Shown here: in pieces, positions 3,167 to 51,845 of the stretch | How the letters are laid out: each line of letters opens with the position of its first letter | Numbering within the stretch: the first letter of the stretch is position 1 | Source: a virus | Taxonomy: Duplodnaviria > Caudoviricetes | DNA: 64,000 nucleotides | Virus record (IMG/VR): IMGVR_UViG_3300042291_001013 | Reading direction: 5' to 3' (one strand) | The notes under the pieces: generated by a model | Databases searched by the model: none | Seen by the model: the letters and a program-made list of their open reading frames with translations, nothing else | What the model was told of the DNA's origin: nothing | Position numbers and translations under genes: made by a program

Positions 3167-4152
3167 TGATTAATATTCCGCACATTGATCTTAAGATTTG
3201 GAATCCTGAATTCAAAACAATTGAAATTGTTTCAGAGTTACAACAGCACAGCAGTGTGTCTATCAGCATTGACGGCGAAGGATCTGATTGTGAAACGCTG
3301 GGCTTGTATAAACTATTGGATGCAGTATGCAGTAACTTAGGTTACACCCCCGACGCCATAAGCATACACACTTGCAATCAATTAGAACATCATCCTTGCT
3401 ATAAAATTATCAAGCATCCACCGTTGTATATTCCCAGCGGGCAACAGTTTGCAACTCAGCACACGCTACCAGGGAAGCGTTGGGACACATTGAAACATTT
3501 TGGTATGTTTATTGGGCGTAGCAGTTGGCAACGACTGTGGATGGCCAGTCACACATGGAGTAACTACAGCGATAAAACTGTTATGACGTATCACTATGAC
3601 AGTAGTGTTGACTATCATCGCACACATTTAAGTTTTGATGAACTAGCACATCAAATAGGATTGCCCAAGGCAGTTGATACAGCTGGTAAGTTTATGCAAC
3701 AATTACCTATCAAAAACGAAGCTGTTGACAGCTATCCTATTCTAACTCCGGCACACTTTGCCATATCCAAACTGTACCCTGATTTTTTTGTGGAAATAGT
3801 ATGTGAAACTTTTTTAAGCGGTAACAGCTTCTACCCCACAGAAAAAACCTGGAGACCTTTTATATGTCGTACACCGTTTTTGACTCTGGGCCCACGTGGC
3901 TTTTTGGCAAACTTACATACGCTGGGGTTTAAAACATTCTCTCAGTGGTGGGACGAAAGCTACGATCAAGACGCAGACCTAGACAACGGACGGGTAGCTA
4001 TCAACTGCATACAGCAAACACAACAACGCTTGAGCAAATTGAGCACAGTAGAACTAGAAGGTATGTATATTGACATGAAAGATACTTTAGATTATAACTA
4101 TCAACACTTCATGCAGTTAAAAGAAAAGGACTTTGCAAAAATATGGCCATGA
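3166..4152 (+). CDS. GT10-like TEK-motif protein
   Basis: EIVCETF..FYPTEKTWRPF..GFKTF..DESYD. Confidence 0.55.
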   Translation: MINIPHIDLKIWNPEFKTIEIVSELQQHSSVSISIDGEGSDCETLGLYKLLDAVCSNLGYTPDAISIHTCNQLEHHPCYKIIKHPPLYIPSGQQFATQHTLPGKRWDTLKHFGMFIGRSSWQRLWMASHTWSNYSDKTVMTYHYDSSVDYHRTHLSFDELAHQIGLPKAVDTAGKFMQQLPIKNEAVDSYPILTPAHFAISKLYPDFFVEIVCETFLSGNSFYPTEKTWRPFICRTPFLTLGPRGFLANLHTLGFKTFSQWWDESYDQDADLDNGRVAINCIQQTQQRLSKLSTVELEGMYIDMKDTLDYNYQHFMQLKEKDFAKIWP

Positions 4153-32719: not shown

Positions 32720-33325
32720 TTACATTGTAGGACCGTTGCCGTTCCTAAATCCAATCTCACCACCTTCTGCTGTGATACGCTTATAAACGTCTTCCAACAA
32801 GATAGGTGCAAAATCTGTTTGCTCCACGCATACGCAATGGTAACGCACATCAATTTCGTTACTGTACAATACTGTACCAGTTTTGGCATCAACCCCACGT
32901 GCTCTCTTAACACGGCTGGCATGCAAGTGTCCGTGAATGTTCACACCAAAGCGACCAATGCTGGCCTCATGCACAGGAATGTGACTCAAGATCATGCCGT
33001 TCAACACATGATACGCTCGCAACTCACGAAAGTACTCACGGTACTCGTCATCACGAAAAATGTCATGGTTGCCGCGGATCAATACTTTGTCGCCGTTCAA
33101 GCGAGCCAATGTTTTCAAGGCCTTGCGGTTGATAACAACATCACCCAAGTGGTAAATCTTGTCGCCGGGACGAACAGTATCGTTCCATCGACGGATCATT
33201 TCCTCATCCATCTCATCAGGATCATCCCATGGACGCAACTTCACGGTGTCGTCATCAGGATGTGTAAACTTACACACCCCAGCATGACCAAAGTGCGTGT
33301 CACTGACTAAAAATACTGCTGGCAT
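32720..33325 (-). CDS. Calcineurin-like metallophosphoesterase
   Basis: SDTHFGH, HLGD, GNHD, HGHLH. Confidence 0.9.
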   Translation of the reverse strand: MPAVFLVSDTHFGHAGVCKFTHPDDDTVKLRPWDDPDEMDEEMIRRWNDTVRPGDKIYHLGDVVINRKALKTLARLNGDKVLIRGNHDIFRDDEYREYFRELRAYHVLNGMILSHIPVHEASIGRFGVNIHGHLHASRVKRARGVDAKTGTVLYSNEIDVRYHCVCVEQTDFAPILLEDVYKRITAEGGEIGFRNGNGPTM

Positions 33326-33326
33326 A

Positions 33327-33800
33327 TTATTCTCCTACTATCCAAATTTCTTTAAAACCTTCATCTAACGATGGGGGTTCAAAACCTGTAATCATCTTTT
33401 CCATCACATCTGCTGGAATGTTCTTACCAGGGCGATTTGCCAATCTACGTACCAACTCTTGTGGCCCAGGCACTTTGAATACCACAGCAATGTGTTCGTA
33501 TTGTGAAGGCAACAGTGTGTTAAACTTCTTTTTACGACTTGCTACTGTAGTGCTTGTTTGGTCCCAGATAAAGTCCAAGTTGTTAGCTTGACAAGTCAAC
33601 GCATGGTTCACCATCAAACGAACTGCAATAGGCATGTATTCGTCAAACACTTCACTATATGTTTTACCCTGGCGGTGTGCCTCTATTTCAACATACATAT
33701 CAGTACCAACCACTGGCATACCTAAAGCCCAGATTTGATTTTTAATCCAAGTACTTTTACCCGAGCCCGGGACCCCGATTAATTGATAACACTTGTTCAT
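33327..33800 (-). CDS. P-loop polynucleotide kinase-like protein
   Basis: GVPGSGKST, DQT, RLANR lid; start at 33800 after AAGGAG. Confidence 0.8.
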   Translation of the reverse strand: MNKCYQLIGVPGSGKSTWIKNQIWALGMPVVGTDMYVEIEAHRQGKTYSEVFDEYMPIAVRLMVNHALTCQANNLDFIWDQTSTTVASRKKKFNTLLPSQYEHIAVVFKVPGPQELVRRLANRPGKNIPADVMEKMITGFEPPSLDEGFKEIWIVGE

Positions 33801-34288
33801 ATATCTCCTTCGCGGGCTTTTGGGATCACAAAGCCCCAATCTGTTGTTTCACCATTGATGGTGTGTTTTTCGTCTTCGTCGTAAGTCCAACCCAACACCT
33901 TCATCATCCGGTGCTTGACCAACAAGTTGGGGCTACGGAACGATTCAGTATCCTTGAATCCTAACATCACACCAATCTCACAAACTGCACCTGAACGACA
34001 CACACCTGCATGACAATGCACGATGACATTCATGCGTTGCTCTTGTGCATGTTGCAATAGTCGAACCAGTTCTTGTGCCTGTTCATCTGTGCATTTGCAC
34101 TCGTCAGGGAAAAATTTATCGTCCTGTTCGGCATCCAAGAATTCAAACTGGTGAACTTCGCGGAACTGATACTTGGGTACAGGGAATTCGTATGCAGGAT
34201 CCACAATCTGAATCAGCATGGAATTAACGCCAGGGTCAATATGAAACCCCTGCCGAATGTCACTCATGCTAACGTTTTGAATCCACAT
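33797..34288 (-). CDS. Cysteine (PTP/DSP-like) phosphatase
   Basis: HCHAGVCRS (CX5R). Confidence 0.8.
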   Translation of the reverse strand: MWIQNVSMSDIRQGFHIDPGVNSMLIQIVDPAYEFPVPKYQFREVHQFEFLDAEQDDKFFPDECKCTDEQAQELVRLLQHAQEQRMNVIVHCHAGVCRSGAVCEIGVMLGFKDTESFRSPNLLVKHRMMKVLGWTYDEDEKHTINGETTDWGFVIPKAREGDI

Positions 34289-38257: not shown

Positions 38258-38332
38258 TGGTAGGCCTTGAGAGGATCGAACTCCCACCGCTTGTTTCGAA
38301 GACAAGCATGATATCCATTTCACCAAAGGCCT
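38258..38332 (-). tRNA. tRNA-Arg(UCG)
   Basis: Cloverleaf; loop CTTCGAA; CCA encoded. Confidence 0.92.
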
Positions 38333-38335
38333 ATG

Positions 38336-38409
38336 TGGTGCTCTCAACAAGAATTGAACTTGTGTTTCATCCTTACCAAGGATGTGTAATGCCATTATAC
38401 TATGAGAGC
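38336..38409 (-). tRNA. tRNA-Thr(GGU)
   Basis: Loop TTGGTAA; CCA. Confidence 0.92.
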
Positions 38410-38413
38410 TAAG

Positions 38414-38487
38414 TGGAGCAGGATACCAGAATCGAACTGGTGACTGGACCTTGGCAAGGTTCTATTTTACCCCTAAACTAATCCTGC
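38414..38487 (-). tRNA. tRNA-Gly(GCC)
   Basis: Loop TTGCCAA; U73-CCA. Confidence 0.9.
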
Positions 38488-38500
38488 AATTTTTTACTTA

Positions 38501-38974
38501 TTAGGCTGCTCGTAGACTTTTGAATCTATCTGCCGCGTATGATGCCGCAAATGCTTCTGGCTTCACAAACGGGATCACATTGCATGTTCCTTTAATGTAG
38601 CCTACAGCTTGTGAAATCACACAGCTTGATCCGTGCATTTCGTTTGGGTTGATGTCCAAGTGAACTTCAACTTCACGGCCTTCTAGCACATCGGCCAGCT
38701 TCAAATACAATTCGCTAACCTTGTATACTTCTGTCATGAGTCGCATGGCCGGCTTGCTTGGTTTTTGATCGTAAACACGTTCTCGGTGTACTTCGCCAAA
38801 CAGTTTGCAACCGTTGTTGCCGTTGATGTGTACCACAATGGCCAGCACATAGTCAGCATACCAAGCACCGTCAATTTTGATTCGTTCCGAGTCGCAGCCA
38901 AGATAGATTCGAGTTTCGGGTGTTTGGGCCCGGATAAACTCTGCTACTTGATTGATGTCTAGTTTTTTCATCAT
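38501..38974 (-). CDS. RNase H-like YkuK (DUF458) family protein
   Basis: IYLGCDS, EVHLDIN, FAASYAAD; start MMKKL at 38974. Confidence 0.8.
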   Translation of the reverse strand: MMKKLDINQVAEFIRAQTPETRIYLGCDSERIKIDGAWYADYVLAIVVHINGNNGCKLFGEVHRERVYDQKPSKPAMRLMTEVYKVSELYLKLADVLEGREVEVHLDINPNEMHGSSCVISQAVGYIKGTCNVIPFVKPEAFAASYAADRFKSLRAA

Positions 38975-39014
38975 TGTCTTTCTATTTAACTCGGGAACCG
39001 TTACAGTTTTATTA

Positions 39015-39094
39015 TGGTACCCCTGCTCAGATTCGAACTGAGAACATATACTCCCTTTTGAGGAGAGTGACTTTACCAATTTGTCCACAGGGGC
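39015..39094 (-). tRNA. tRNA-Leu(CAA), short variable region
   Basis: Loop CTCAAAA; 8-nt variable region. Confidence 0.85.
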
Positions 39095-39109
39095 ACAGCG
39101 TTTGAAATT

Positions 39110-39186
39110 TGGTGCCCCAGGGGAGACTCGAACTCCCAAAATTTGGCTTCTAAGACCAACACGTATACCAATTCCGTCACCGGGGC
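39110..39186 (-). tRNA. tRNA-Leu(UAG), short variable loop
   Basis: Loop CTTAGAA; 5-nt variable loop. Confidence 0.88.
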
Positions 39187-39197
39187 TTAAATACAAT

Positions 39198-39413
39198 ATG
39201 CACGAAAAGGAAAAAATCTATGTTAAAGATCTCTACAGATTGTTCTGTACAGAACTTTACACAACTACCGCAAGTTGGGTAACCGCAAAACACTTTGTGG
39301 CCGACCCTTTGCTGGATCTGAAAAAAGAATTTATTCCTGATGCTACATTGGTACCAGGAGACGGGATCGAACCGCCCACACCTTGTGCTTCAAACAAGTG
39401 CTCTACCAACTGA
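39198..39413 (+). CDS. Possible antisense micro-ORF MHEKEKIY...
   Basis: TAAATA 4 nt before ATG; 3' part overlaps tRNA-Phe in antisense. Confidence 0.35.
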   Translation: MHEKEKIYVKDLYRLFCTELYTTTASWVTAKHFVADPLLDLKKEFIPDATLVPGDGIEPPTPCASNKCSTN

Positions 39414-39424
39414 GCTATCCTGGC
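39349..39424 (-). tRNA. tRNA-Phe(GAA)
   Basis: Loop TTGAAGC. Confidence 0.93.
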
Positions 39425-39430
39425 AATATT

Positions 39431-39505
39431 TGGTACCTGGTCACGGTTTCGAACCGCGGACCCTCTCCGTGTAAAGGAGACGCTCTACCCCTGAGCTAAC
39501 CAGGC
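39431..39505 (-). tRNA. tRNA-Val(UAC)
   Basis: Loop TTTACAC. Confidence 0.93.
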
Positions 39506-39514
39506 AAACTATTT

Positions 39515-39606
39515 TGGCGGAAGACGGAGGAGTCGAACCCCATCCCTGTTAAGAGAACCTGGTTTTCAAGGCCAGTCGCGGGACCAACCCCACTGCATCA
39601 TCTTCC
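39515..39606 (-). tRNA. tRNA-Ser(UGA), probable 8/4 fold
   Basis: Loop CTTGAAA; GGAAGATG/CGTCTTCC acceptor; 4-bp T-stem; long variable arm; G73. Confidence 0.85.
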
Positions 39607-39611
39607 ATATA

Positions 39612-39688
39612 TGGTCGGAATGACACGGTTCGAACGTGCGACCACTGCGTCCCAAACGCAGAGCTCTACCAGGCTGAGCTACATTCCG
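39612..39688 (-). tRNA. tRNA-Pro(UGG)
   Basis: Loop TTTGGGA; C1-G72. Confidence 0.93.
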
Positions 39689-39696
39689 AATTAAAC

Positions 39697-39915
39697 TTAC
39701 TTTAACTTGGGATCAATTGACTTATCAACTTCGTGCGGTTCTGCAAACCTAGGAGTTGGCTGATCCCAATACGCTGGAAAGATCTTCCAGCCAAAACTTT
39801 TCCAGTAACGATGAATGATGTTGTTTATCACAACAACCCCAGCCACGATTACAATTACACCTGTCATTGTTAAAACACTGCCGGCTAAAAATACTGCCGC
39901 TTGATCCATATCCAT
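39697..39915 (-). CDS. Small single-pass membrane protein
   Basis: Hydrophobic N-terminal helix. Confidence 0.65.
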   Translation of the reverse strand: MDMDQAAVFLAGSVLTMTGVIVIVAGVVVINNIIHRYWKSFGWKIFPAYWDQPTPRFAEPHEVDKSIDPKLK

Positions 39916-39939
39916 ATTTGTAAATCCTTTGGAGTTGTG

Positions 39940-40557
39940 TTATTTCAGCATCAATTCCACAGGATCAATAATGGGCATGGTTGCCAGCATGATCCTGGGA
40001 TATTTTGCATCAGGCCCCGGCATAACCCTGTGAGGGATATAACTGTTGAAAACAATAGGATGCTCATGCATGTTATACCTCAGCAAACAAGGATACTGAT
40101 CTTGTACAGTGTGATGTAACACAGAAAAATTATACTGTTCTGTGCCTGTGTATGGGTTTGTCATAACCGGGAGCCGATTCATGGCTTCCTTGGGAATATC
40201 ATACCACTCTGTATAAACATCCTCAGTGTTGTAGATTGGAAAGTTTATTTTGAAGTTCATGGGCGGTGCATCGTTGTGCAACACAACCCCATCGGTCATA
40301 CCTTCTGTCAGCAATCCCACTGTGATTTCTTTGATAGGCAGGTTGACTCGAAACATAAATCGCAACAAATTTGGACACACCTTGGCCATTTGTTTGTAAT
40401 CTATCAGATGCCAGAACTTTTTTTCTTGTTTTTCGTTTAGAAAATCAGTGTTATCTACAACCCAGTTCATTATCTCTTCTTTGATTTGATCAAGGTTGTC
40501 ACACTCAAGTTCGTGTATACATTTGAAACGACTTTGGTCTGGGATATAATCAATCAT
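39940..40557 (-). CDS. Putative 2OG-Fe(II)/cupin oxygenase within the tRNA array
   Basis: LHND..PHRV..RIML; TAAATA 4 nt before ATG. Confidence 0.55.
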   Translation of the reverse strand: MIDYIPDQSRFKCIHELECDNLDQIKEEIMNWVVDNTDFLNEKQEKKFWHLIDYKQMAKVCPNLLRFMFRVNLPIKEITVGLLTEGMTDGVVLHNDAPPMNFKINFPIYNTEDVYTEWYDIPKEAMNRLPVMTNPYTGTEQYNFSVLHHTVQDQYPCLLRYNMHEHPIVFNSYIPHRVMPGPDAKYPRIMLATMPIIDPVELMLK

Positions 40558-40582
40558 GATATATTTACTACCTACAATTATT

Positions 40583-40656
40583 TGGAGCAGGGTAGGGGAA
40601 TCGAACCCCTCGCTTTAGCTTGGAAGGCTAAGGTATTACCACTATACGAACCCTGC
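40583..40656 (-). tRNA. tRNA-Gly(UCC)
   Basis: Loop CTTCCAA. Confidence 0.94.
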
Positions 40657-40668
40657 GTTGAATTACTT

Positions 40669-40697
40669 ATTATACAGCATCTTAGCAATACTGTAAA
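40669..40697 (-). promoter_or_regulatory. Promoter TTTACA-17-TATAAT
   Basis: Direct match upstream of tRNA-Gly(UCC). Confidence 0.75.
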
Positions 40698-40704
40698 GCA
40701 ATTT

Positions 40705-40779
40705 TGGTAGCCATGGACAATTTCGAAATGTCGACCTAACGCTTATCAAGCGTTTGCTCTTCCTCTGAGCTACACGGCT
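40705..40779 (-). tRNA. tRNA-Ile(GAU)
   Basis: Loop TTGATAA. Confidence 0.88.
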
Positions 40780-40788
40780 AAATATTGA

Positions 40789-40962
40789 ATGCACATTGAC
40801 GTCTATCTACAAAAACAGTTGTACTGCACCATTGAACTAAGTCAGCCCGGTTACAATGTGCCTGCTATCTTGGATCAAATCCAAAGTGATCGCGAAGCTG
40901 GCAACTTGACCTGGGTACAGTGGGATCAGCCGCTTGACTTTGAAGTCAAATACTTTGAATAA
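40789..40962 (+). CDS. 57-aa antisense-oriented protein MHIDVYLQKQ...
   Basis: Fills an inter-tRNA spacer exactly; TAAATA 4 nt before ATG. Confidence 0.6.
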   Translation: MHIDVYLQKQLYCTIELSQPGYNVPAILDQIQSDREAGNLTWVQWDQPLDFEVKYFE

Positions 40963-40964
40963 CT

Positions 40965-41038
40965 TGGCACGGGAACTAGGGCTCGAACCTAGAATGACAG
41001 AGTCAAAGTCTGTAGTGTTACCATTACACTATTCCCGA
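40965..41038 (-). tRNA. tRNA-Gln(UUG)
   Basis: Loop CTTTGAC; 1-72 mismatch; G73. Confidence 0.92.
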
Positions 41039-41046
41039 ACAAAACT

Positions 41047-41121
41047 TGGTGGATGTAAGTAGATTCGAACTACTGACCTGCCGCGTATGAAGCGAATGCA
41101 CTACCGCTGTGCTATACATCC
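41047..41121 (-). tRNA. tRNA-Met(CAU), probably elongator
   Basis: Loop TTCATAC; G1-C72; Met versus Ile2 is an inference. Confidence 0.75.
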
Positions 41122-41124
41122 GAT

Positions 41125-41199
41125 TGGGGTATCCAATGAGAATTGAACTCATGATAGCGGAATCACAATCCGCGGTTTTACCACTAAACTATGGACACC
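41125..41199 (-). tRNA. tRNA-His(GUG)
   Basis: Loop TTGTGAT; G-1 opposite C73. Confidence 0.93.
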
Positions 41200-41200
41200 A

Positions 41201-41314
41201 TATAGGAGCACTCTCAACAGCAGGCCTAGGAGGCAATCTGGTTGCTGAAACTTTTGCATCTGCAGATACTAGGCTTCTTCTCCCGCGTTGACTTACGCCA
41301 AGAATGCTTTTATA
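41201..41314 (-). ncRNA. Stem-enclosed structured spacer RNA
   Basis: 12/14-bp closing stem; GNRA (GUAA) hairpin; GCCTAG/CTAGGC helix. Confidence 0.5.
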
Positions 41315-41388
41315 TGGTAGGGGTGTTCGGGAACGATCCGAATTTTACTGGTTAAAAGCCAGTTACTTCACCTTAAAGTTTCACCCCC
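41315..41388 (-). tRNA. tRNA-Lys(UUU), non-canonical core
   Basis: Loop CTTTTAA; A8/U14 and A54/U58. Confidence 0.85.
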
Positions 41389-41417
41389 ATAGGTTTATCA
41401 CTCTTGTCACTAGTCAT
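41373..41417 (-). CDS. 14-aa mini-ORF MTSDKSDKPMGVKL overlapping the tRNA-Lys 5' end
   Basis: AAGGAG 7 nt upstream of ATG. Confidence 0.4.
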   Translation of the reverse strand: MTSDKSDKPMGVKL

Positions 41418-41439
41418 GACAGATCTCCTTTTAAAAAAT

Positions 41440-41516
41440 TGGTACCACCTGAGAGATTCAAACTCCCGACCCCTAAGTTCGTAGCCTAGTGCTCTGTTCA
41501 GCTGAGCTAAGGTGGT
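41440..41516 (-). tRNA. tRNA-Arg(ACG)
   Basis: Loop CTACGAA; T-loop TTTGAAT. Confidence 0.88.
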
Positions 41517-41520
41517 GTGT

Positions 41521-41596
41521 TGGTGCCCCTTGTCCGACTCGAACAGACCACCTACTGCTTACAAAACAGTTGCTCTACCGGATGAGCTAAAGGGGC
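41521..41596 (-). tRNA. tRNA-Thr(UGU)
   Basis: Loop TTTGTAA. Confidence 0.92.
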
Positions 41597-41603
41597 AAAT
41601 TGT

Positions 41604-41693
41604 TGGCGGTGCGAAAGAGACTCGAACTCTTAAAGCGGCTTTCACCACTCGACGGATTAGCAATCCGCTCCAATACCATTATGGGACCGCACC
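41604..41693 (-). tRNA. tRNA-Ser(GCU)
   Basis: Loop TTGCTAA; long variable arm; 7/5 fold. Confidence 0.92.
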
Positions 41694-41700
41694 TCAAATT

Positions 41701-41776
41701 TGGCTCCCCAGCGTGGGATCGAACCACGGACACCTTGATTAACAGTCAAGTGCAACTACCGCTGTGCTACTAGGGA
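41701..41776 (-). tRNA. tRNA-Asn(GUU)
   Basis: Loop CTGTTAA. Confidence 0.93.
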
Positions 41777-41786
41777 ATAATCTACT

Positions 41787-41808
41787 TAGTAGGCACTCAT
41801 GCCTACTA
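41787..41808. other. Perfect 9-bp spacer hairpin
   Basis: TAGTAGGCA-CTCA-TGCCTACTA. Confidence 0.7.
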
Positions 41809-41817
41809 TCAAAAACT

Positions 41818-41894
41818 TGGCGACCCGGGAAGGATTTGAACCTCCGACATTTGGTTTTGGAGACCAACGTTCTGCCAGACTGAACTACCGAGCC
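41818..41894 (-). tRNA. tRNA-Trp(CCA)
   Basis: Loop CTCCAAA; G73. Confidence 0.92.
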
Positions 41895-41899
41895 ATATT

Positions 41900-41974
41900 T
41901 GGTGGAGGATAAGAGAATTGAACTCTTTTGACCTACGTGCAAGGCAGGCATAATACCCAGTATATGAATCCCCC
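41900..41974 (-). tRNA. tRNA-Ala(UGC)
   Basis: Loop CTTGCAC; G3-U70. Confidence 0.9.
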
Positions 41975-42004
41975 AAATTTTCAAACACACTGTTTCCAAT
42001 GTGT

Positions 42005-42060
42005 GTATTAAAGCACTCTAAAATACTTAGGCTGCCTGTTCGTAAAGAATGCTTTAATAC
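42005..42060 (-). ncRNA. 15-bp processing-type stem in spacer
   Basis: GTATTAAAGCATTCT pairs with AGAGTGCTTTAATAC. Confidence 0.6.
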
Positions 42061-42156
42061 GCTGTAATTTTTTATCTCACAAAAGAGACTCTATCCTACA
42101 GGCCGCCCATTTGTAGTTTAGAGTGATACCGGCTCTCGTTGCCATTGCACTAAATG

Positions 42157-42185
42157 AAAAACCCTGGAGTGTTTAGTTCCAGGGT
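42157..42185 (-). terminator. Intrinsic terminator of attenuator B
   Basis: ACCCTGGA-9nt-TCCAGGGT followed by TTTT. Confidence 0.85.
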
Positions 42186-42208
42186 CTTGTTGAATTTGTC
42201 AGTTACTT

Positions 42209-42343
42209 TTATGCGTAACCTGCACCTTCAATAGACCCCGACATCCCTAGAATACTATTCACGCGACCAGAGGCGTGTGACCAGGTAAATGTTGCCTGGA
42301 GCATCGCGGGTTTTGTCGACAGTGAACGGAATGTTGTTTTCAT
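42209..42343 (-). CDS. 44-aa leader peptide B (MKTTFRSLST...GAGYA)
   Basis: Promoter and AGGA RBS upstream; stop sits in the loop of the putative antiterminator. Confidence 0.65.
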   Translation of the reverse strand: MKTTFRSLSTKPAMLQATFTWSHASGRVNSILGMSGSIEGAGYA

Positions 42344-42353
42344 CTTAAGTCCT

Positions 42354-42382
42354 ATTGTAGTTTATTTATGATTGTTTGTCAA
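42354..42382 (-). promoter_or_regulatory. Sigma70 promoter TTGACA-17-TACAAT with embedded TAAATA
   Basis: Direct sequence match. Confidence 0.85.
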
Positions 42383-42398
42383 TCACAAATGGTAAAAT

Positions 42399-42473
42399 TG
42401 GTTGCGGGTGAAGGATTCGAACCTCCGTCTTCTAGGTTATGAGCCTAGTAGTCTACCACTGACGTAACCCGCG
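42399..42473 (-). tRNA. tRNA-fMet(CAU)-like
   Basis: C1-A72 mismatch; loop CTCATAA; only two G-C pairs next to the loop. Confidence 0.85.
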
Positions 42474-42491
42474 TTAACTTTTATTTATATC

Positions 42492-42567
42492 TGGAGTAGG
42501 TGACAGGACTCGAACCTGCATTTTACGGATTTGCAATCCGGCGCCTAACCATTCGGCACACACCTAC
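42492..42567 (-). tRNA. tRNA-Cys(GCA)
   Basis: Loop TTGCAAA; U73. Confidence 0.88.
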
Positions 42568-42577
42568 ACTAATTGAA

Positions 42578-42790
42578 TTTGCAAGTAGTTGCTCCATCGT
42601 TATAGCAACCATTCACCCGTGTAATAAACTCGAGCGGGACTCGGTACGTCACTTGGGATACTAGTCCAGTTTGTCTCCGTTACAGACACCACCCTTGCGA
42701 GTGGTTGGGAGTTGAACCCATCACCTTCTACTGTTTTGGTCCTTCGAAGAAACCTAGACAGCATGACATTCTCTTGCTGACACTTACAAA
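42578..42790 (-). ncRNA. Unassigned ~210-nt structured RNA with a T-arm-like hairpin
   Basis: 10-bp terminal stem TTTGTAAGTG/TACTTGCAAA; TGGG-TTCAACT-CCCA; several internal hairpins. Confidence 0.65.
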
Positions 42791-42793
42791 ACT

Positions 42794-42868
42794 TGGCGAT
42801 GCATGGGAGAATCGAACTCCCGTCTCCGGATAGACAATCCGGGATAATGACCATTATATGAATGCACC
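42794..42868 (-). tRNA. tRNA-Asp(GUC), canonical core
   Basis: Loop TTGTCTA; G73. Confidence 0.9.
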
Positions 42869-42875
42869 TTAAACT

Positions 42876-42950
42876 TGGCGGTCCCAGGGGGTAACGATCC
42901 CCCTCTTCAGCAGTGACAGTGCTGTGTGCGTCCATGAACACCTTGAGACC
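42876..42950 (-). tRNA. tRNA-Asp(GUC), non-canonical core
   Basis: Loop CTGTCAC; A8/U14 and A54/U58. Confidence 0.82.
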
Positions 42951-42957
42951 AATTTTT

Positions 42958-43100
42958 ATAGTTAAGCACCGAGAATGCCAATTTAGGAGTCCGGTGCTTC
43001 TGTTCCAAAGCCGATGCAGTTATATCAGGATCAGTCGCCGGCCGCTGTGACCCGAATAGTGTAAGCGTCCTTACACGATACCTTATCGGTGCTTAACTAT
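42958..43100 (-). ncRNA. Stem-enclosed structured RNA
   Basis: Perfect 15-bp inverted repeat ATAGTTAAGCACCGA; inner GTGTAAG/CTTACAC hairpin. Confidence 0.6.
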
Positions 43101-43110
43101 AAAAACAAAA

Positions 43111-43310
43111 ATGCTCTGCATCCCCCGGCGGTAATTGTAGTACATCAAGATACGACGCTATCGTACCCATCACACGTACCTTCCACCCGCTTCCCGACAG
43201 GGACCGTTATCGCATTGCTAGCGGCCTTTGGGTTCAAAGACTACCACCCGTAGCTGTCACGCTACTTCTCATCGTGTGGGTCACACTATCCGGAGACACC
43301 CGGAACGTTC
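43111..43310 (-). ncRNA. Candidate GC-rich structured RNA directly after tRNA-Tyr
   Basis: Hairpins TCCGG/CCGGA, GTAGC/GCTAC, CTTTG/CAAAG, TACGA/TCGTA; no plausible ORF. Confidence 0.5.
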
Positions 43311-43311
43311 T

Positions 43312-43397
43312 TGGTGGAGATGGATGGATTTGAACCACCGCGCTTTTTACAGAACAGATTTACAGTCTGCCGCCTTCAACCACTCGGCCACATCTCC
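43312..43397 (-). tRNA. tRNA-Tyr(GUA)
   Basis: Loop CTGTAAA; long variable arm. Confidence 0.93.
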
Positions 43398-43405
43398 AAA
43401 AAAGG

Positions 43406-43468
43406 GAGAGCTACGGTTGCAGGACCTAGTGCCTCTTGCGAGGGAAGTATCCAGGCGATGTAGCTCTC
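43406..43468 (-). ncRNA. 63-nt rod-like spacer RNA
   Basis: GAGAGCTAC/GTAGCTCTC, CCTGG/CTAGG, CCTC-GCAA-GAGG. Confidence 0.5.
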
Positions 43469-43472
43469 AAAC

Positions 43473-43547
43473 TGGTAGAGCGTAGGAGAGTCGAACTCCT
43501 CTTATGCGGATGAAAACCGCATGTCCTAACCGATAGACGAACGCTCC
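43473..43547 (-). tRNA. tRNA-Glu(UUC)
   Basis: Loop TTTTCAT. Confidence 0.92.
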
Positions 43548-43553
43548 ATAGTT

Positions 43554-43813
43554 CACTATATGAAAACACATTAGGATGTTTGATAGAAGTAACAGTTTTG
43601 AACCTGCCCTACTGTGTCGTCCACAGATTTGTCTATCAACCACATTACGGGCCAACTAGATCCGGCGCGCTTCGCTCTTTCGAGTCTGCTTTCGTGTAGT
43701 CCAAGTAGAGCCTAGCCGTCACTAGGATTTAGTTCTCTACTTGGGTACCTACCGGAGTTGGTAACCCAATGCGTTTACATATAGTGCCCAGAACTGAATC
43801 TGGGTACACTATA
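43554..43813 (-). ncRNA. Unassigned ~230-260-nt multi-helix RNA
   Basis: 18/19-bp closing stem; 10-bp CCAAGTAGAG helix; GAAA tetraloop; T-loop-like GTTCAAAA. Confidence 0.7.
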
Positions 43814-43881
43814 CAAAATTAAATTTTTAACGAACTCCAAAGTAGCTTCGATCAACTGTCTTTGTTTTCTAACTTGTATCT

Positions 43882-43910
43882 AGTATAACATCTTGTGCTA
43901 TTCTGGTCAA
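43882..43910 (-). promoter_or_regulatory. Sigma70 promoter TTGACC-17-TATACT
   Basis: Direct match upstream of the ncRNA/tRNA block. Confidence 0.8.
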
Positions 43911-43920
43911 CTTGTTTTGT

Positions 43921-43945
43921 AAAAGCCCCGCCTTGTTGCAGGGTC
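43921..43945 (-). terminator. Second terminator-like hairpin below attenuator A
   Basis: CCCTGC/GCGGGG followed by CTTTT; also preceded by AAAGAC. Confidence 0.55.
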
Positions 43946-44021
43946 TTTACAAACTTTGCTGTGTTACTTCCTAACTAGTCTCTAGTATAACATGATTCCA
44001 ATTCTTTGCCTAACACATAAA

Positions 44022-44045
44022 GAAAAACCCTGCTCGGTGCAGGGT
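44022..44045 (-). terminator. Intrinsic terminator of attenuator A
   Basis: ACCCTGC-ACCGA-GCAGGGT followed by TTTT. Confidence 0.85.
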
Positions 44046-44069
44046 CTTTGTAGATGTAGTACGAAATAC

Positions 44070-44156
44070 TTACACACAAAGACCCCGAGATGGATCATAC
44101 TCACGCTCGCATGTGAATGCCATTGAATTGAGGATGATTGCGAAAGTTTGTTTCAT
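44070..44156 (-). CDS. 28-aa leaderless leader peptide A (MKQTFAIILNSMAFTCEREYDPSRGLCV)
   Basis: ATG 6 nt after TATAAT; last codons carry the anti-terminator strand. Confidence 0.65.
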   Translation of the reverse strand: MKQTFAIILNSMAFTCEREYDPSRGLCV

Positions 44157-44162
44157 AAGTGT

Positions 44163-44191
44163 ATTATATATGACAGCAGACAAAAAGTCTA
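44163..44191 (-). promoter_or_regulatory. Sigma70 promoter TAGACT-17-TATAAT
   Basis: Direct match; predicted +1 at the A of the leader ATG. Confidence 0.75.
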
Positions 44192-44204
44192 CTGTTTTGG
44201 TAAA

Positions 44205-44545
44205 ATTGGATAGGTTTATTCTGTTACGAGGAAAACCTATCAAAACCCTAGGCAGTGTTTAGGCTGCCAATGCGAACTGTTCGTCGTTTGCGTTTACGTT
44301 TTTTGCTTCTACGACCGGGAAACCCCAACCCTACGGCTTTCACATTGCCGAGCTGTCCACTCTGTTACTCTTTGCCCTGTCGAAACCATGGCAGGCCCAT
44401 TATAAAACATACTCAAACGGGTCTTTTCGCCTATCCCCGTGCCGTGGCTTGCAAGGATAGGGCTGAATATGCTTTATGGTGGACCTGGCGGGAGTCGAAC
44501 CCGCGTCCAGAACACTTTTCTCTTTGCTTCATACAGCAATAACCT
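44205..44545 (-). ncRNA. ssrA: Circularly permuted (two-piece) tmRNA, tag ANDEQFALAA
   Basis: Acceptor piece ending GGTTCGACTCCCGCCAGGTCCACCA (44477) precedes the 5' piece GGGCCTG (44398); G3-U70; tag at 44259-44291. Confidence 0.95.
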
Positions 44546-44547
44546 AT

Positions 44548-44576
44548 ATTATATTAGGCTTTCTGAATTTTGTCAA
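44548..44576 (-). promoter_or_regulatory. Consensus promoter TTGACA-17-TATAAT for tmRNA
   Basis: Perfect consensus. Confidence 0.9.
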
Positions 44577-45498
44577 CCAAACCGGCACTGAATGTGTTGG
44601 CAAATTGATCATATACTTTGGCAGTTACCTTGCGAAAAGTTTGCTCATCAGCATCGCTAAATTTAATAACACGAATGCCATCTTGCTCACAACGTGCCTT
44701 GGTAGGCTCAACTTCGGCCACAGCCACAGCACGCTCAAAACGTCCAGCTTCTAATGCCGCATCTTTCATGACCTGTTGCAGGTCTGCAGACAAGCCAGCC
44801 AAGAAGTTCTTGTTCACAATGATGTTAGTCAACAACAAGCGATGGTTGGGTTCCAAGATAGATTCAGCAACTTCGTTTTGTTGGCAAGCATAGATACGTG
44901 GCCATGAGCTTTCGCCGCCATCAATAGCACCATCTCGGATGCCTTCGGCCACACGTTCAACGTCCATCACAACTGGATCAGCGCCCAGGGCAGTCCATGT
45001 AGCGGCTGCAACTGGTGAATTTGACACACGCACTTTAACGCCGGCCATTTCACTTAGACTTGCAACGTCACGATTCATGGGCATGTTCATAAAGCCACCT
45101 GAGTAGGTAAATGCCATGCCTTTGATGTTGCTGTTCTTGGCGTAACCATCCAGCAAACTCTCGCCAATTTCACTTTCAAACACACGTGCCGCGTGATCGT
45201 GATCACGGAACAAGAAAGGCAAATCAAGTGCGTCAAGATCATTGTTGTACTTGCTGAGTACATAAGTGTACATCTGGCTCATTTCAATAGCGCCAGTGTC
45301 CATAACATCCAACAGGTTATGTTTGGTGATTGGTTCACCATGATTGTACTTGCTGGTATACTCGCTTAGAGTCAGCACTTCAATCTCAAACTGTCCTGGT
45401 GCACGGGCTTCTACTACTTCAGTAAATTTTTCAGCGGCACGAATAAAAATGTCAATAGGTTCATGGGCTAATACCCATTTGATGTGGATAGGTTTCAT
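44554..45498 (-). CDS. TRAP transporter substrate-binding protein (DctP family), no visible signal peptide
   Basis: LDLPFLFRD, GVKVRV, LGADPV, IDGGE; start may be 45528. Confidence 0.85.
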   Translation of the reverse strand: MKPIHIKWVLAHEPIDIFIRAAEKFTEVVEARAPGQFEIEVLTLSEYTSKYNHGEPITKHNLLDVMDTGAIEMSQMYTYVLSKYNNDLDALDLPFLFRDHDHAARVFESEIGESLLDGYAKNSNIKGMAFTYSGGFMNMPMNRDVASLSEMAGVKVRVSNSPVAAATWTALGADPVVMDVERVAEGIRDGAIDGGESSWPRIYACQQNEVAESILEPNHRLLLTNIIVNKNFLAGLSADLQQVMKDAALEAGRFERAVAVAEVEPTKARCEQDGIRVIKFSDADEQTFRKVTAKVYDQFANTFSAGLVDKIQKA

Positions 45499-51165: not shown

Positions 51166-51251
51166 TGGTACCAGAGACGGGACTCGAACCCGTATGCCCT
51201 TGCGAGCGGCAGATTTTAAGTCTGCTGTGTATACCATTCCACCACTCTGGC
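51166..51251 (-). tRNA. tRNA-Leu(UAA)
   Basis: Loop CTTAAAA; long variable arm. Confidence 0.94.
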
Positions 51252-51260
51252 GAGTGTTTG

Positions 51261-51437
51261 TTAACCGCCTCGGCCGGCTGCTTTGCGAACTGGTTTACCT
51301 GCGGGTGCTAGCGGAGCAGAACGTTTGGCGGCCTTTTGCTGAGTCTTTGATAACTTTGCATCAGGATGCGCAGAGGCATTCTTTCGATCTAGTGCTTGTT
51401 TCACTGCTGTGATAAAAGGTACTGGCGTTTTTGACAT
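51261..51437 (-). CDS. 58-aa Lys/Ala-rich basic protein
   Basis: Hand translation MSKTPVPF..RKAAGRGG; GGAG RBS; TAAATA upstream. Confidence 0.65.
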   Translation of the reverse strand: MSKTPVPFITAVKQALDRKNASAHPDAKLSKTQQKAAKRSAPLAPAGKPVRKAAGRGG

Positions 51438-51450
51438 TGTTGCTCCAAGT

Positions 51451-51684
51451 TTATTTAGCGGTCAGTTGTGCCCAGGCCAACCATTGCTTAAATGCATTAT
51501 ACACTGTTTCTGCTTCTTTGTCATCCACTGGCACTCGAACTCCACGTACATAGAATCCTTCTGGAGTGACCTTTATCATTTCATCTCCATCATTTAATGT
51601 CCATGAAATTGTATTGTTATGATACAAGCCTTCGGTACTGCCGCCCATGTCTACCTGTAGTGTCTGCGGTTTGATAGGTGTCAT
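51451..51684 (-). CDS. Hypothetical protein
   Basis: Start MTPIK; an upstream extension would overlap a tRNA. Confidence 0.6.
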   Translation of the reverse strand: MTPIKPQTLQVDMGGSTEGLYHNNTISWTLNDGDEMIKVTPEGFYVRGVRVPVDDKEAETVYNAFKQWLAWAQLTAK

Positions 51685-51693
51685 GCTAGTCCT

Positions 51694-51768
51694 TGGTCCG
51701 GCGTGCAAGAATCGAACTCACATTCAAGAGGTAGAAGCTCTTTGTATTATCCATTATACTAACGCCAG
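51694..51768 (-). tRNA. tRNA-Arg(UCU)
   Basis: Loop CTTCTAC. Confidence 0.9.
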
Positions 51769-51770
51769 GT

Positions 51771-51845
51771 TGGTGGGACCACTTGGAATTGAACCAAGAC
51801 TCAATCGATTATGAGTCGACTGCTTTACCATTAAGCTATGATCCC
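51771..51845 (-). tRNA. tRNA-Ile2(CAU) (lysidine type, inferred)
   Basis: GTCGA-CTCATAA-TCGAT arm resembles the E. coli ileX arm. Confidence 0.75.

What the first reader, a model, noticed from the sequence alone, without database searches (positions are those of the whole stretch)
41201..44476. Shared closing stem brackets ncRNA cargo between tRNAs and the tmRNA intervening segment
Five long inverted repeats share a core 5'-AA(A)(G/C)CA...TG(C/T)TT-3' with AT-rich outer flanks: 41201-41314 (12/14 bp), 42005-42060 (15 bp), 42958-43100 (15 bp, perfect), 43554-43786 (18/19 bp) and the tmRNA intervening segment 44403-44476 (12 bp). Two start right after an encoded CCA, and most end just before the next 5' G. 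The intervening segment of a permuted tmRNA must be excised (established). Inference: a common double-strand processing signal (RNase III-like) lets the tRNA operon act as an expression vector that releases discrete small RNAs.
Basis: partly seen in the sequence, partly recalled or inferred. Interest (0 to 1): 0.8.

Follow-up and report, generated by a model that had tools for sequence, protein, structure and literature searches.

The report
Shared closing helix in phage tRNA array
A giant lake-water phage closes the non-tRNA inserts of its tRNA gene array and the removable segment of its split tmRNA gene with the same kind of RNA helix; over a hundred related phages do the same, so this looks like a general way of packaging and releasing extra RNAs, and even small protein genes, from tRNA-type transcripts.

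Summary
All five inverted repeats exist, on the tRNA-sense (minus) strand. Four of them (41199-41314, 42005-42060, 43554-43786 and the tmRNA intervening segment 44399-44476), plus an unlisted cargo-less hairpin at 41985-42004, share the core AAARYAYAUU/ARURURYUUU. The stem at 42953-43105 is similar in shape only.

In IMG/VR relatives, 72 of 75 tmRNA intervening segments have this stem, starting at the first base after CCA. A profile built from tRNA-spacer stems recognises them (p=2e-35). G·U outnumbers A·C 58:3, so the pairing is selected in RNA.

The cargo is very diverse. It includes 61 unrelated short loops, two covarying structured RNAs, and in 28 relatives real ORFs whose Shine-Dalgarno sequence and stop codon lie in the stem arms.

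My best reading (0.5) is that the flanking tRNA-like ends are cut by ordinary tRNA-processing enzymes, and the helix seals and insulates the excised piece. RNase III as the common enzyme is untested and unlikely to be universal: some stems have only 8-10 bp, and five complete relatives encode no RNase III.

RNA evidence comes from assembled contigs only. One contig hints at a circular form of the 43554-43786 RNA.

First-reader notes from this scan describe similar stems in other genomes. I rate this a new variant of a known kind.

The parts
44171..44590 (-). Circularly permuted (two-piece) tmRNA gene: acceptor piece, intervening segment, then coding piece with tag ANDEQFALAA
   Evidence: ARAGORN. 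Rfam RF04321 at 123 bits and RF01850 at 112 bits, both over the full model.
44548..44576 (-). Promoter of the tmRNA gene (TTGACA-17-TATAAT, 12 of 12 matches)
   Evidence: Consensus scan. This is a consensus match only.
44399..44476 (-). tmRNA intervening segment (78 nt). The closing stem UAAAGCAUAUUCA / UGAGUAUGUUUUA starts at the first base after CCA and is followed by a 4-nt UAAU leader before G1.
   Evidence: z -4.2. The same layout is seen in 72 of 75 relatives, against 1 of 75 shuffled controls. The core scores at the 99.9th percentile.
43554..43786 (-). Insert 4 ('E4'): a conserved structured RNA of about 230 nt with a 22-bp closing stem that carries the family core (UAAACGCAUU)
   Evidence: z -6.5. 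Covariation in 11 sequences, with 20 of 38 pairs showing double changes, including pairs in the closing stem. In relatives it exactly fills tRNA-to-tRNA spacers. RNA contigs of depth 3,700-5,100 in two studies.
42953..43105 (-). Insert 3 ('E3'): a conserved structured RNA of about 150 nt with a 20-23 bp closing stem. The stem covaries but does not carry the family core.
   Evidence: Covariation in 14 sequences, 28 of 36 pairs with double changes. Weight-matrix score at the 87th percentile only.
42005..42060 (-). Insert 2: a 15-bp hairpin with the family core (AAAGCAUUCU) and a 26-nt loop, in the leader of tRNA-Ala
   Evidence: z -5.2. Core at the 99.2nd percentile. Conserved in L011 and four other loci.
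41985..42004 (-). Cargo-less core hairpin ACACAUUG-GAAA-CAGUGUGU, 10 nt upstream of tRNA-Ala.
   Evidence: 8 bp, z -2.6. Also present in L011 and L008.
41199..41314 (-). Insert 1: a hairpin that exactly fills the spacer from tRNA-Lys(UUU) to tRNA-His. Outer stem UAUAAAAGCAUUCUUGG / UUGAGAGUGCUCCUAUAU.
   Evidence: The orthologous slot in relatives holds stems with the consensus UAUAAAAACACAUU and unrelated interiors.
43882..43910 (-). Promoter (TTGACC-17-TATACT) of the unit that begins with E4 and tRNA-Glu
   Evidence: Consensus match only.
42354..42382 (-). Promoter (TTGACA-17-TACAAT) upstream of a small ORF and terminator, followed by insert 2 and tRNA-Ala
   Evidence: Consensus match only.

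Best explanation
The stems are RNA helices formed by the first and last bases of whatever lies between two tRNA-type ends: the CCA of an upstream tRNA or of the tmRNA acceptor piece, and the 5' G of the next tRNA or of the tmRNA coding piece.

I infer that the cuts are made by the host's ordinary tRNA-processing enzymes, guided by the flanking tRNA-like domains. RNase P cuts at the 3' side of the insert. An endonuclease of the RNase Z/BN or RNase E type, followed by exonuclease trimming, acts at the CCA side.

The helix does three things. (1) It keeps the insert from mispairing with the neighbouring tRNA bodies; in the permuted tmRNA it also clamps the two strands of the acceptor stem together across inserts of up to 382 nt. 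(2) It leaves the excised piece with paired, protected ends, so a structured RNA such as E4 can accumulate. (3) It defines a slot with fixed borders into which almost anything can be placed: a short loop, a structured RNA, or a small ORF whose ribosome-binding site and stop codon sit in the two arms.

Shown here: the stems, their exact borders, their conservation and RNA-level selection, and the diversity of the cargo. Inferred: which enzymes cut, that the excised pieces are released intact, and why the 10-bp core sequence itself is conserved. The conserved core may reflect leader and trailer preferences of the processing enzymes, or an unknown binding factor.
For: Border precision. In 72 of 75 intervening segments the stem starts 0-2 nt after CCA (53 of them at the first base) and ends 4-5 nt before G1, against 1 of 75 shuffled controls. 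There are 73 unique tRNA-spacer stems that run from the first base after CCA to within 2 nt of the next tRNA.

RNA-level selection on the tRNA-sense strand. Under a scoring that treats both alike, G·U versus A·C is 58:3 in intervening segments and 112:58 in spacers. Closing stems of E3 and E4 covary.

The same core appears in both contexts. The spacer consensus is UAUA-AAAACACAUU and the intervening-segment consensus is nAAGnAnAUU, in the same register. Cross-scoring gives p=2e-35.

The stem does not depend on what it encloses. There are 61 unrelated interiors among 72 hairpins. The interiors range from structured RNAs to ORFs of 21-122 aa, with AAGGA in the 5' arm and the stop at the UGA of the UGAU leader. 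These ORFs are shown to be coding by a Pfam PF03692 match and third-codon-position bias, and they lie inside tmRNA genes that Rfam recognises across the insert. ORF-type stems are weaker than non-ORF stems, as translation would require.

The Rfam consensus for bacterial permuted tmRNA also has an A-rich then U-rich palindromic segment right after CCA. [quoted passage not shown]

ORFs that fill tRNA-to-tRNA spacers end to end occur in 58 of 501 unique spacers of 80 nt or more. That fits tRNA-guided punctuation as the general rule in these arrays.
Against: No RNA ends were mapped. The only RNA data are assembled contigs, which cannot show ends or rank parts of a gene.

A helix that pairs the leader right up to position -1 should, from established knowledge of RNase P, hinder rather than help cleavage.

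In this window E4 and insert 2 have no tRNA directly upstream, so their 5' ends cannot be set by tRNA 3' processing.

Insulation or end protection does not explain conservation of the core sequence, nor of an A·C mismatch at stem position 5.

The core also occurs as a bare 8-bp hairpin with no cargo, which looks more like a recognition site.
Confidence: 0.5

Rival explanations
1. The stem itself is the cleavage signal. A double-strand-specific or sequence-specific endoribonuclease (host RNase III or an unidentified phage enzyme) recognises the conserved core and cuts both arms at its outer edge. RNase P and exonucleases then trim the short tails left on the tRNAs.
For: The core sequence is conserved whatever the flanks or cargo, including sites with no upstream tRNA (E4, insert 2 and the bare hairpin at 41985-42004). 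E1, E3 and E4 have stems of about 20 bp or more. One RNA contig (X18, 234 nt) joins the 3' arm of an E4 relative to its 5' arm exactly at the outer edge of the core. That is what cutting both arms there and then joining the ends would produce. The junction was found in no IMG/VR or JGI metagenome contig. Precedents: RNase III excises stem-closed intervening sequences from 23S rRNA (PMC8708148) and releases tRNA-Met from the metY-nusA transcript (reference 46 in PMC5371410).
Against: Mean stem length is 12 bp in intervening segments. Several relatives have whole segments of 23-30 nt with 8-10 bp stems, and the ORF-type stems are weak (-5 to -12 kcal/mol). No RNase III gene was found in five relatives that are 95-100% complete, while the control search found it in 8 of 14 reference genomes. 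The circular-junction evidence is a single contig of depth 16 from a relative, and the matching linear variant itself has only one hit in IMG/VR, so absence of the junction in DNA carries little weight. No candidate phage nuclease was found next to the array.
Confidence: 0.25
2. The arms are chiefly DNA-level module borders. Conserved short sequences at the exact ends of tRNA genes would let hairpin, RNA or ORF cassettes be exchanged or moved by recombination, comparable to promoter-stem-loop cassettes of T4-type phages, attC sites or miniature inverted-repeat elements. The RNA helix would then be a by-product.
For: Hairpins with the same interior sit between different tRNA pairs in related phages. 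Seven of 10 multi-member interior clusters occur in more than one context, and in 4 of them both neighbours differ. tRNA order differs strongly between relatives. Another report of this scan describes DNA-conserved linkers used for module shuffling in this same phage (e1-5340194, not re-tested here).
Against: The strong excess of G·U over A·C on the transcribed strand (58:3) and the compensatory changes show selection on RNA pairing. Such selection would not act on a DNA recombination site. Copies within one genome are not near-identical, there are no target-site duplications, and the attC core GTTRRRY is absent. Orthologous interiors drift gradually rather than being swapped.
Confidence: 0.1
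3. The core helix is a binding site for a trans-acting factor, such as an RNA chaperone, an antitermination or decoy protein target, or a defence or counter-defence protein. It would regulate or titrate that factor rather than direct excision.
For: The core is conserved in sequence and carries a conserved A·C mismatch. It occurs as a bare hairpin in a tRNA leader. There is a preferred slot after tRNA-Lys(UUU), 35 of 62 unique spacers.
Against: No partner gene was identified. The position inside the tmRNA segment, which must be removed, and the exact fit to tRNA ends are explained more simply by processing.
Confidence: 0.1

Closest known systems
Intervening segment (IVS) of circularly permuted, two-piece tmRNA genes (alpha- and beta-proteobacteria, cyanobacteria, aquatic phages)
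   Same: One of the five elements is exactly this: it lies between the CCA of the acceptor piece and G1 of the coding piece. Phage-encoded two-piece tmRNAs are already known (PMC9004378). The Rfam consensus segment is also A-rich and then U-rich.
   Different: Rfam models treat the segment as an unpaired loop. Here a sequence-conserved closing helix is nearly universal (72 of 75). It recurs outside the tmRNA, between ordinary tRNAs. In 28 relatives the segment holds a protein-coding gene. The tmRNA database paper mentions only a tRNA gene and a repetitive element as unusual segment contents (PMC11915505).
RNase III processing stalks: 16S/23S rRNA stalks, 23S rRNA intervening sequences, T7 R1.1, the metY-nusA hairpin
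   Same: A long helix formed by the two flanks of an RNA that is cut out of a longer transcript. The insert is dispensable and variable, as in the 100-200-nt 23S intervening sequences (PMC8708148).
   Different: Cleavage by RNase III is not shown here. Many stems are shorter than one to two helical turns. The borders coincide with tRNA ends rather than lying inside a long duplex.
Stable small RNAs encoded in the phage T4 tRNA gene cluster (species 1 and species 2 RNAs, rnaC/rnaD); cited from memory, papers not held
   Same: Non-tRNA stable RNAs co-transcribed with phage tRNAs and released by the tRNA-processing machinery. Their function is unknown. This phage is T4-like according to other reports of this scan.
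   Different: No sequence comparison was possible. The shared closing helix, its use in a tmRNA gene and the ORF cargo are not features I know from T4.
tRNA punctuation of polycistronic transcripts (mitochondria; bacterial tRNA-mRNA operons)
   Same: RNAs and ORFs abut tRNAs without spacers and would be released by RNase P and RNase Z-type cuts.
   Different: Here a dedicated helix seals the excised piece, and the system sits in a phage tRNA array and inside a tmRNA gene.
Mobile hairpin-type cassettes (integron attC, miniature inverted-repeat elements, T4-type promoter-stem-loop cassettes)
   Same: Inverted-repeat borders around variable content. The same cassette is found in different contexts.
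   Different: Selection acts on RNA pairing. There are no duplications of the target and no attC core, and the copies are not near-identical.

Membership tests
Permuted tmRNA intervening segment | Lies between the 3' CCA of the acceptor piece and the 5' G of the coding piece of a permuted tmRNA gene | tested here: met
   Rfam RF04321 and RF01850 alignments place 44399-44476 there. The same parse succeeds for 82 unique relatives.
Permuted tmRNA intervening segment | Absent from the mature two-piece tmRNA | tested here: inconclusive
   Contig depth over the bin that holds the segment is 10-25 times lower than over the coding piece in three runs. Contig depth cannot rank parts of a gene, and the acceptor piece is equally shallow.
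RNase III processing stalk | Continuous double-stranded stem of about one to two helical turns (11-22 bp or more) | tested here: inconclusive
   Met by E1, E3 and E4 (about 20-23 bp with mismatches). Borderline for insert 2 (15 bp) and the window's tmRNA segment (13 bp). Not met by the 8-bp core hairpin or by the 8-10-bp stems of short segments in relatives.
RNase III processing stalk | Cuts on both strands staggered by 2 nt, leaving 5'-phosphate and 3'-hydroxyl | not testable with these tools
   Only assembled contigs could be laid, and no read ends are available. One contig junction near the edge of the core is compatible with a near-blunt double cut, but it is a single observation.
RNase III processing stalk | An RNase III enzyme is available | tested here: inconclusive
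   No PF14622 match in five relatives that are 95-100% complete. A host enzyme is probable, but the host is unknown.
Miniature inverted-repeat element or other mobile DNA | Several near-identical copies in one genome, terminal inverted repeats and target-site duplication | tested here: not met
   The five window copies differ in both arms and interiors. There are 61 interior clusters among 72 hairpins. No flanking duplications are present; the borders are CCA and the next tRNA.
Integron attC site | Conserved R/L boxes (RYYYAAC ... GTTRRRY) and an integrase | tested here: not met
   The arm consensus UAUAAAAACACAUU / AAGUGUGUUUnnAUAU lacks GTTRRRY. No search for an integrase was made.
Intrinsic terminator | G+C-rich hairpin followed directly by a run of U | tested here: not met
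   None of the five stems is among the terminator-like sites found on the minus strand. The terminators found lie at 44023-44049 and elsewhere.
Any curated RNA family (Rfam 15) | Match of the cargo RNAs to a covariance model | tested here: not met
   No match to E1-E5 up to E=5. Only tRNA and tmRNA families were matched.

The most novel reading that the evidence does not exclude
The 10-bp core (AAARYAYAUU paired with ARURURYUUU) may be the recognition element of an undescribed, sequence-specific RNA excision system of giant freshwater phages. It would cut both arms at the outer edge of the core, wherever the core is placed: between tRNAs, in tRNA leaders or in the tmRNA gene. It would release cargo RNAs and small mRNAs, and for at least the E4 RNA the ends would then be joined into a circle.
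Probability: 0.15. Interest if true: 0.85.

Novelty: new variant of a known kind. Interest (0 to 1): 0.6.

Why it matters
It ties together two things that have been treated separately: the removable segment of split tmRNA genes and the unexplained non-tRNA inserts of large-phage tRNA arrays. One structural rule now covers both, and it is documented in more than a hundred uncultured phage genomes.

It shows that a tmRNA gene can carry a protein-coding gene inside the part that is cut out. The helix arms double as ribosome-binding site and stop codon. I did not find this described in the papers I could search.

It marks several abundant, conserved phage RNAs of unknown function (E3, E4, E5) as well-bounded targets.

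It turns the question of how permuted tmRNA and phage tRNA arrays are processed into a set of simple in vitro and mutant tests.

The fixed-border slot could also serve as a design for releasing RNAs from tRNA scaffolds.

Tried and rejected
1. Cultured relatives. GenBank phages share only tRNA and T-arm matches with the region and with the tmRNA, so there is no system to point to for experiments.

2. Whole genome of the window. None is held.

3. Host-type intervening segments. A 17-mer scan of genome contigs returned mostly standard tmRNAs or chance hits and one permuted tmRNA in a metagenome bin. A search for beta_tmRNA in 151 genomes of the class of a Polaromonas genome gave no match over the cut-off. 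The host and its segment therefore remain unknown. One listed genome (G052) is unpublished, and nothing here rests on it.

4. Within-genome matching of the tmRNA-segment stem to the spacer stems. Only 5 loci held both. One close relative (L073) pairs the window-type spacer stem with an ORF-type segment, so there is no strict concordance. Complete relatives have the tmRNA far from the tRNA array.

5. Phage RNA ligases, as support for circular RNA. No T4 Rnl1 or RtcB was found, and an RNA_ligase domain occurs in only 1 of 5 genomes.

6. The circular junction in DNA. It is absent from IMG/VR and JGI contigs, but the control shows the variant is rare there, so this is weak.

7. RNA contig cover. 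Low or missing cover over inserts 1-3 and the tmRNA segment is not evidence of absence.

8. Distance-to-tRNA enrichment of the 3' core. The loci fetched with the hairpin pattern are biased, and the tmRNA-fetched loci hold too few tRNAs to be informative. The unbiased figure is 9 exact-fill stems among 83 spacers, 6-7 of them family members.

9. Promoter readings of the arms (T4 late TATAAATA, MotA box). Rejected by inspection: the spacing and strand do not fit, and relatives have ACACA in place of AGCA.

10. Papers on T4 stable RNAs and on the first two-piece tmRNA reports are not held.

Full report
**Setting.** The window carries 29 tRNA genes and a circularly permuted (two-piece) tmRNA gene, all on the minus strand. 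They lie at 38258-44590, with three more tRNAs at 51166-51845. All tRNAs encode CCA. Neighbouring genes are auxiliary metabolic genes typical of a large phage. No GenBank phage is close and no whole genome is held. DNA of this stretch is found in many lake-water metagenomes. Other reports of this scan describe the genome as an uncultured T4-like lake phage of about 350 kb. Consensus scans suggest at least three transcription units in the region of the finding. One is the tmRNA gene with its own 12-of-12 promoter. One starts at 43882-43910 and reads E4, Glu, Tyr, Asp and onward. One starts at 42354-42382. The region is therefore not a single operon.

**The observation.** All five inverted repeats are real. 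Each forms the closing helix of the minimum-energy and centroid folds of the tRNA-sense RNA. Z-scores run from -1.7 (insert 1, weak on its own) to -6.5 (insert 4). Insert 1 fills the Lys-to-His spacer exactly. The tmRNA segment starts at the first base after CCA, and its stem ends 4 nt before G1. The shared core is not a chance resemblance: three of the nine AAAGCAU words on this strand of the 64-kb window lie in 5' arms of the five stems. I also found a sixth member, an 8-bp hairpin made of the core alone (41985-42004), 10 nt before tRNA-Ala.

**Relatives.** A 20-nt arm of insert 3 retrieved five IMG/VR contigs with the same gene order: tmRNA, Glu, Tyr, insert, Asp. In each of them the spacer in front of tRNA-His or tRNA-Met holds a hairpin. 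Its arms read UAUAAAAACACAYUG ... CARUGUGUUUCUAUAU, while the interiors are unrelated in sequence and length. In one of them (L009) the tmRNA segment is closed by the same words.

This gave 249 loci, 2.1 Mb and 2,299 tRNA genes.

**Statistics on spacers.**
- Of 664 unique tRNA-to-tRNA spacers of 36 nt or more, 25% have a terminal stem, against 5% of chimeras that pair the 5' end of one spacer with the 3' end of another.
- 73 unique stems run from the first base after CCA to within 2 nt of the next tRNA. Their consensus is 5' UAUAAAAACACAUU and 3' AAGUGUGUUUnnAUAU, at about 1 bit per position.
- These numbers are inflated by the way half of the loci were fetched. In loci fetched by other probes, 9 of 83 spacers of 40 nt or more have such a stem and 6-7 of those belong to the family, all in the slot after tRNA-Lys(UUU) or tRNA-Arg and before tRNA-His or tRNA-Met (slot preference).

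**Statistics on the tmRNA segment.** These loci were fetched without reference to the stem.
- I parsed 82 unique segments of 23-382 nt. All but one are followed by the conserved 5' part of the coding piece.
- Of the 75 that are 40 nt or longer, 72 have a closing stem that begins 0-2 nt after CCA (53 at the first base) and ends 4-5 nt before G1 (leader UGAU or UAAU). Only 1 of 75 shuffled sequences does.
- Their consensus, nAAGnAnAUU ... ARURURYUUUnU, has the register of positions 5-14 of the spacer stems.
- A weight matrix built only from spacer stems, excluding the window, scores the 5' ends of the segments far above control windows (Mann-Whitney p=2e-35). 76% of the non-ORF segments exceed the 95th control percentile.
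- In the window, inserts 1, 2 and 4 and the tmRNA segment score at or above the 99th percentile. Insert 3 scores at the 87th.

**RNA or DNA.** Under a scoring that treats G·U and A·C alike, the non-Watson-Crick positions inside the stems are G·U on the tRNA-sense strand 58 times and A·C 3 times in the segments (p=3e-14). In the spacers the counts are 112 and 58 (p=4e-5). The exception is a recurrent A·C at stem position 5 of the ACAC-type spacers, which looks like a conserved feature. The closing stems of inserts 3 and 4 keep pairing through double changes. The helices are therefore selected in the transcribed RNA.

**What is enclosed.** There are three classes of content.
- Hypervariable loops. 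The 72 exact-fill hairpins fall into 61 unrelated interior clusters, so here only the stem is conserved. Some interiors contain T-arm-like hairpins.
- Conserved structured RNAs. Insert 4 (E4, about 230 nt, 11 sequences) has 20 of 38 pairs with compensatory changes. In relatives it exactly fills spacers such as Glu-to-Lys, with arms UACUAAAGCAUAUUAGG ... that carry the family core. Insert 3 (E3, about 150 nt, 14 sequences) has 28 of 36 such pairs. Neither matches any Rfam family up to E=5.
- Protein-coding genes. In 28 relatives the tmRNA segment holds an ORF of 21-122 aa. The 5' arm supplies AAGGA 5-8 nt before the start codon. In most, the stop is the UGA of the UGAU leader, one base before the tmRNA 5' end, so the 3' arm encodes the C-terminus. 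One ORF family matches Pfam CxxCxxCC above the curated cut-off. Three pairs of homologues differ mostly at third codon positions (36 against 13 and 11; 23 against 13 and 7; 15 against 7 and 3). Rfam's permuted-tmRNA model spans four such genes from end to end at 83-114 bits. ORF-type stems are weaker than the others.

ORFs that fill tRNA-to-tRNA spacers end to end are also common, 58 of 501, but those are not closed by stems.

**RNA evidence.** Four freshwater metatranscriptomes could be laid, but only as assembled contigs. By the tool's own warning these cannot show ends, strand or relative level. Within those limits:
- Exact or near-exact contigs of very high k-mer depth exist, in two or three independent studies, for E4 (3,700-5,100), for a neighbouring RNA E5 (1,000-1,460, with bins up to 27,500), for the 5' domain of the Tyr-to-Asp spacer, and for the tmRNA coding piece.
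- Contigs over inserts 1-3 and over the tmRNA segment are shallow.
- One 234-nt contig from a relative reads the 3' part of E4, six bases, then the 5' part of E4. The joint lies at the outer edge of the conserved core on both arms. The contig length is about the circle length plus k-1.

A circular RNA, a permuted gene or a tandem copy would each give that contig. The junction occurs in no IMG/VR or JGI metagenome contig. However, the linear variant itself has only one hit there, so this remains a hint.

**Mechanism.** The published view is that permuted tmRNA precursors are cut by tRNA-processing enzymes (PMC11915505). Rfam models the segment as a loop, although its consensus is an A-rich then U-rich palindrome. 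The simplest model that covers all contexts is this. The flanking tRNA-like domains direct the cuts, RNase P at the 3' side and an RNase Z/BN or RNase E-type cut plus trimming at CCA. The helix insulates the insert, clamps the acceptor strands of the tmRNA across long inserts, and gives the excised piece paired ends. This explains why the stems begin at the very first base after CCA, why any content is tolerated, and why stems are weaker when the insert has to be translated.

The model does not explain the conserved core sequence, the A·C mismatch, the bare core hairpin, or the release of E4 where no tRNA lies upstream. RNase III is a poor universal candidate, for two reasons:
- Stems are short. 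The mean is 12 bp in segments and some have only 8-10 bp.
- No RNase III gene was found in five complete relatives. A host enzyme remains possible.

A DNA-level role as a module border is supported only by the same hairpin sitting between different tRNA pairs in related phages. It is contradicted as the main role by the strand asymmetry.

I put 0.5 on tRNA-guided excision with a sealing helix, 0.25 on a stem-directed nuclease, 0.1 on recombination borders and 0.1 on a binding site.

**Comparison and novelty.** Already known:
- Phage two-piece tmRNAs (PMC9004378).
- Excision of their intervening segment.
- RNase III stalks and 23S intervening sequences (PMC8708148).
- RNase III release of a tRNA from metY-nusA (cited in PMC5371410).
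- Stable RNAs in the T4 tRNA cluster (from memory).

What I did not find described:
- A sequence-conserved closing helix shared by tRNA spacers and the tmRNA segment across a large phage clade.
- Protein genes inside the tmRNA segment, with translation signals built into the helix.

First-reader notes of this scan report similar AU-rich closing stems in the tRNA arrays of another genome (e1-5375641) and hairpins related to the tmRNA segment in enterobacterial phages (e1-161273). I did not test those. I class the finding as a new variant of a known kind.

Noticed in passing
window 42568-42793 (-): E5 is a conserved structured RNA of about 226 nt between the second tRNA-Asp and tRNA-Cys. It has 21 unique homologues in varied tRNA contexts, a T-arm-like GGGUUCAACUCCC and an invariant closing stem of a different sequence type (UUUUGU ... 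ACAAA). It gives the deepest RNA-contig signal of the region in three lake metatranscriptomes and matches no Rfam family.
   Followed up: partly
window 43106-43311 (-): The 5' half of the Tyr-to-Asp spacer is a separate conserved element of about 205 nt (14 homologues, sometimes without E3 next to it). Its RNA contigs have depth 1,700-4,400. Identity unknown.
   Followed up: partly
relatives, e.g. L024:2964-3224 (-), L112:10238-10606 (-), L017:1266-1463 (+): In 28 of 75 related phages the tmRNA intervening segment holds an ORF of 21-122 aa. These include small hydrophobic peptides, a CxxCxxCC-domain protein and others. The ribosome-binding site lies in the 5' stem arm and the stop codon one base before the tmRNA 5' end.
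   Followed up: yes
window 43569/43776 (RNA contig of run X18): A 234-nt metatranscriptome contig joins the 3' part of an E4 relative to its 5' part through 6 bases at the edge of the conserved stem core. Its length fits a circle of about 204 nt plus k-1. It could be a circular RNA, a permuted gene or a tandem copy.
   Followed up: partly
window 32720-34288 (-): Three adjacent genes encode a dual-specificity phosphatase-like protein, an AAA_33 (polynucleotide-kinase-like) P-loop protein and a calcineurin-like metallophosphoesterase. The set resembles RNA end-healing enzymes. No matching RNA ligase was found in relatives.
   Followed up: partly
relatives (many loci, e.g. L216, L024, L203, L166): A second, unrelated family of spacer hairpins (UUAGGAUGCUU ... 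AAGCAUCCUGU, starting 3-5 nt after CCA) recurs between many different tRNA pairs. It is not present in this window.
   Followed up: no
relatives, tRNA-to-tRNA spacers: 58 of 501 unique spacers of 80 nt or more are filled end to end by an ORF that starts 5-25 nt after CCA and stops 0-15 nt before the next tRNA. They include GroES-like and several recurrent small-protein families.
   Followed up: partly
window 43398-43472 (-): The Glu-to-Tyr spacer is a conserved 75-nt hairpin (9-bp G+C-rich closing stem, 8 homologues) followed by CCCUUUUUU directly before tRNA-Tyr. It may be a terminator or attenuator inside the array.
   Followed up: no
window 39519-39606 (-): There is a sub-threshold match to the selenocysteine tRNA model (36.9 bits, cut-off 47) between tRNA-Pro and tRNA-Val. 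ARAGORN does not call it. It is possibly an unusual long-arm tRNA.
   Followed up: no
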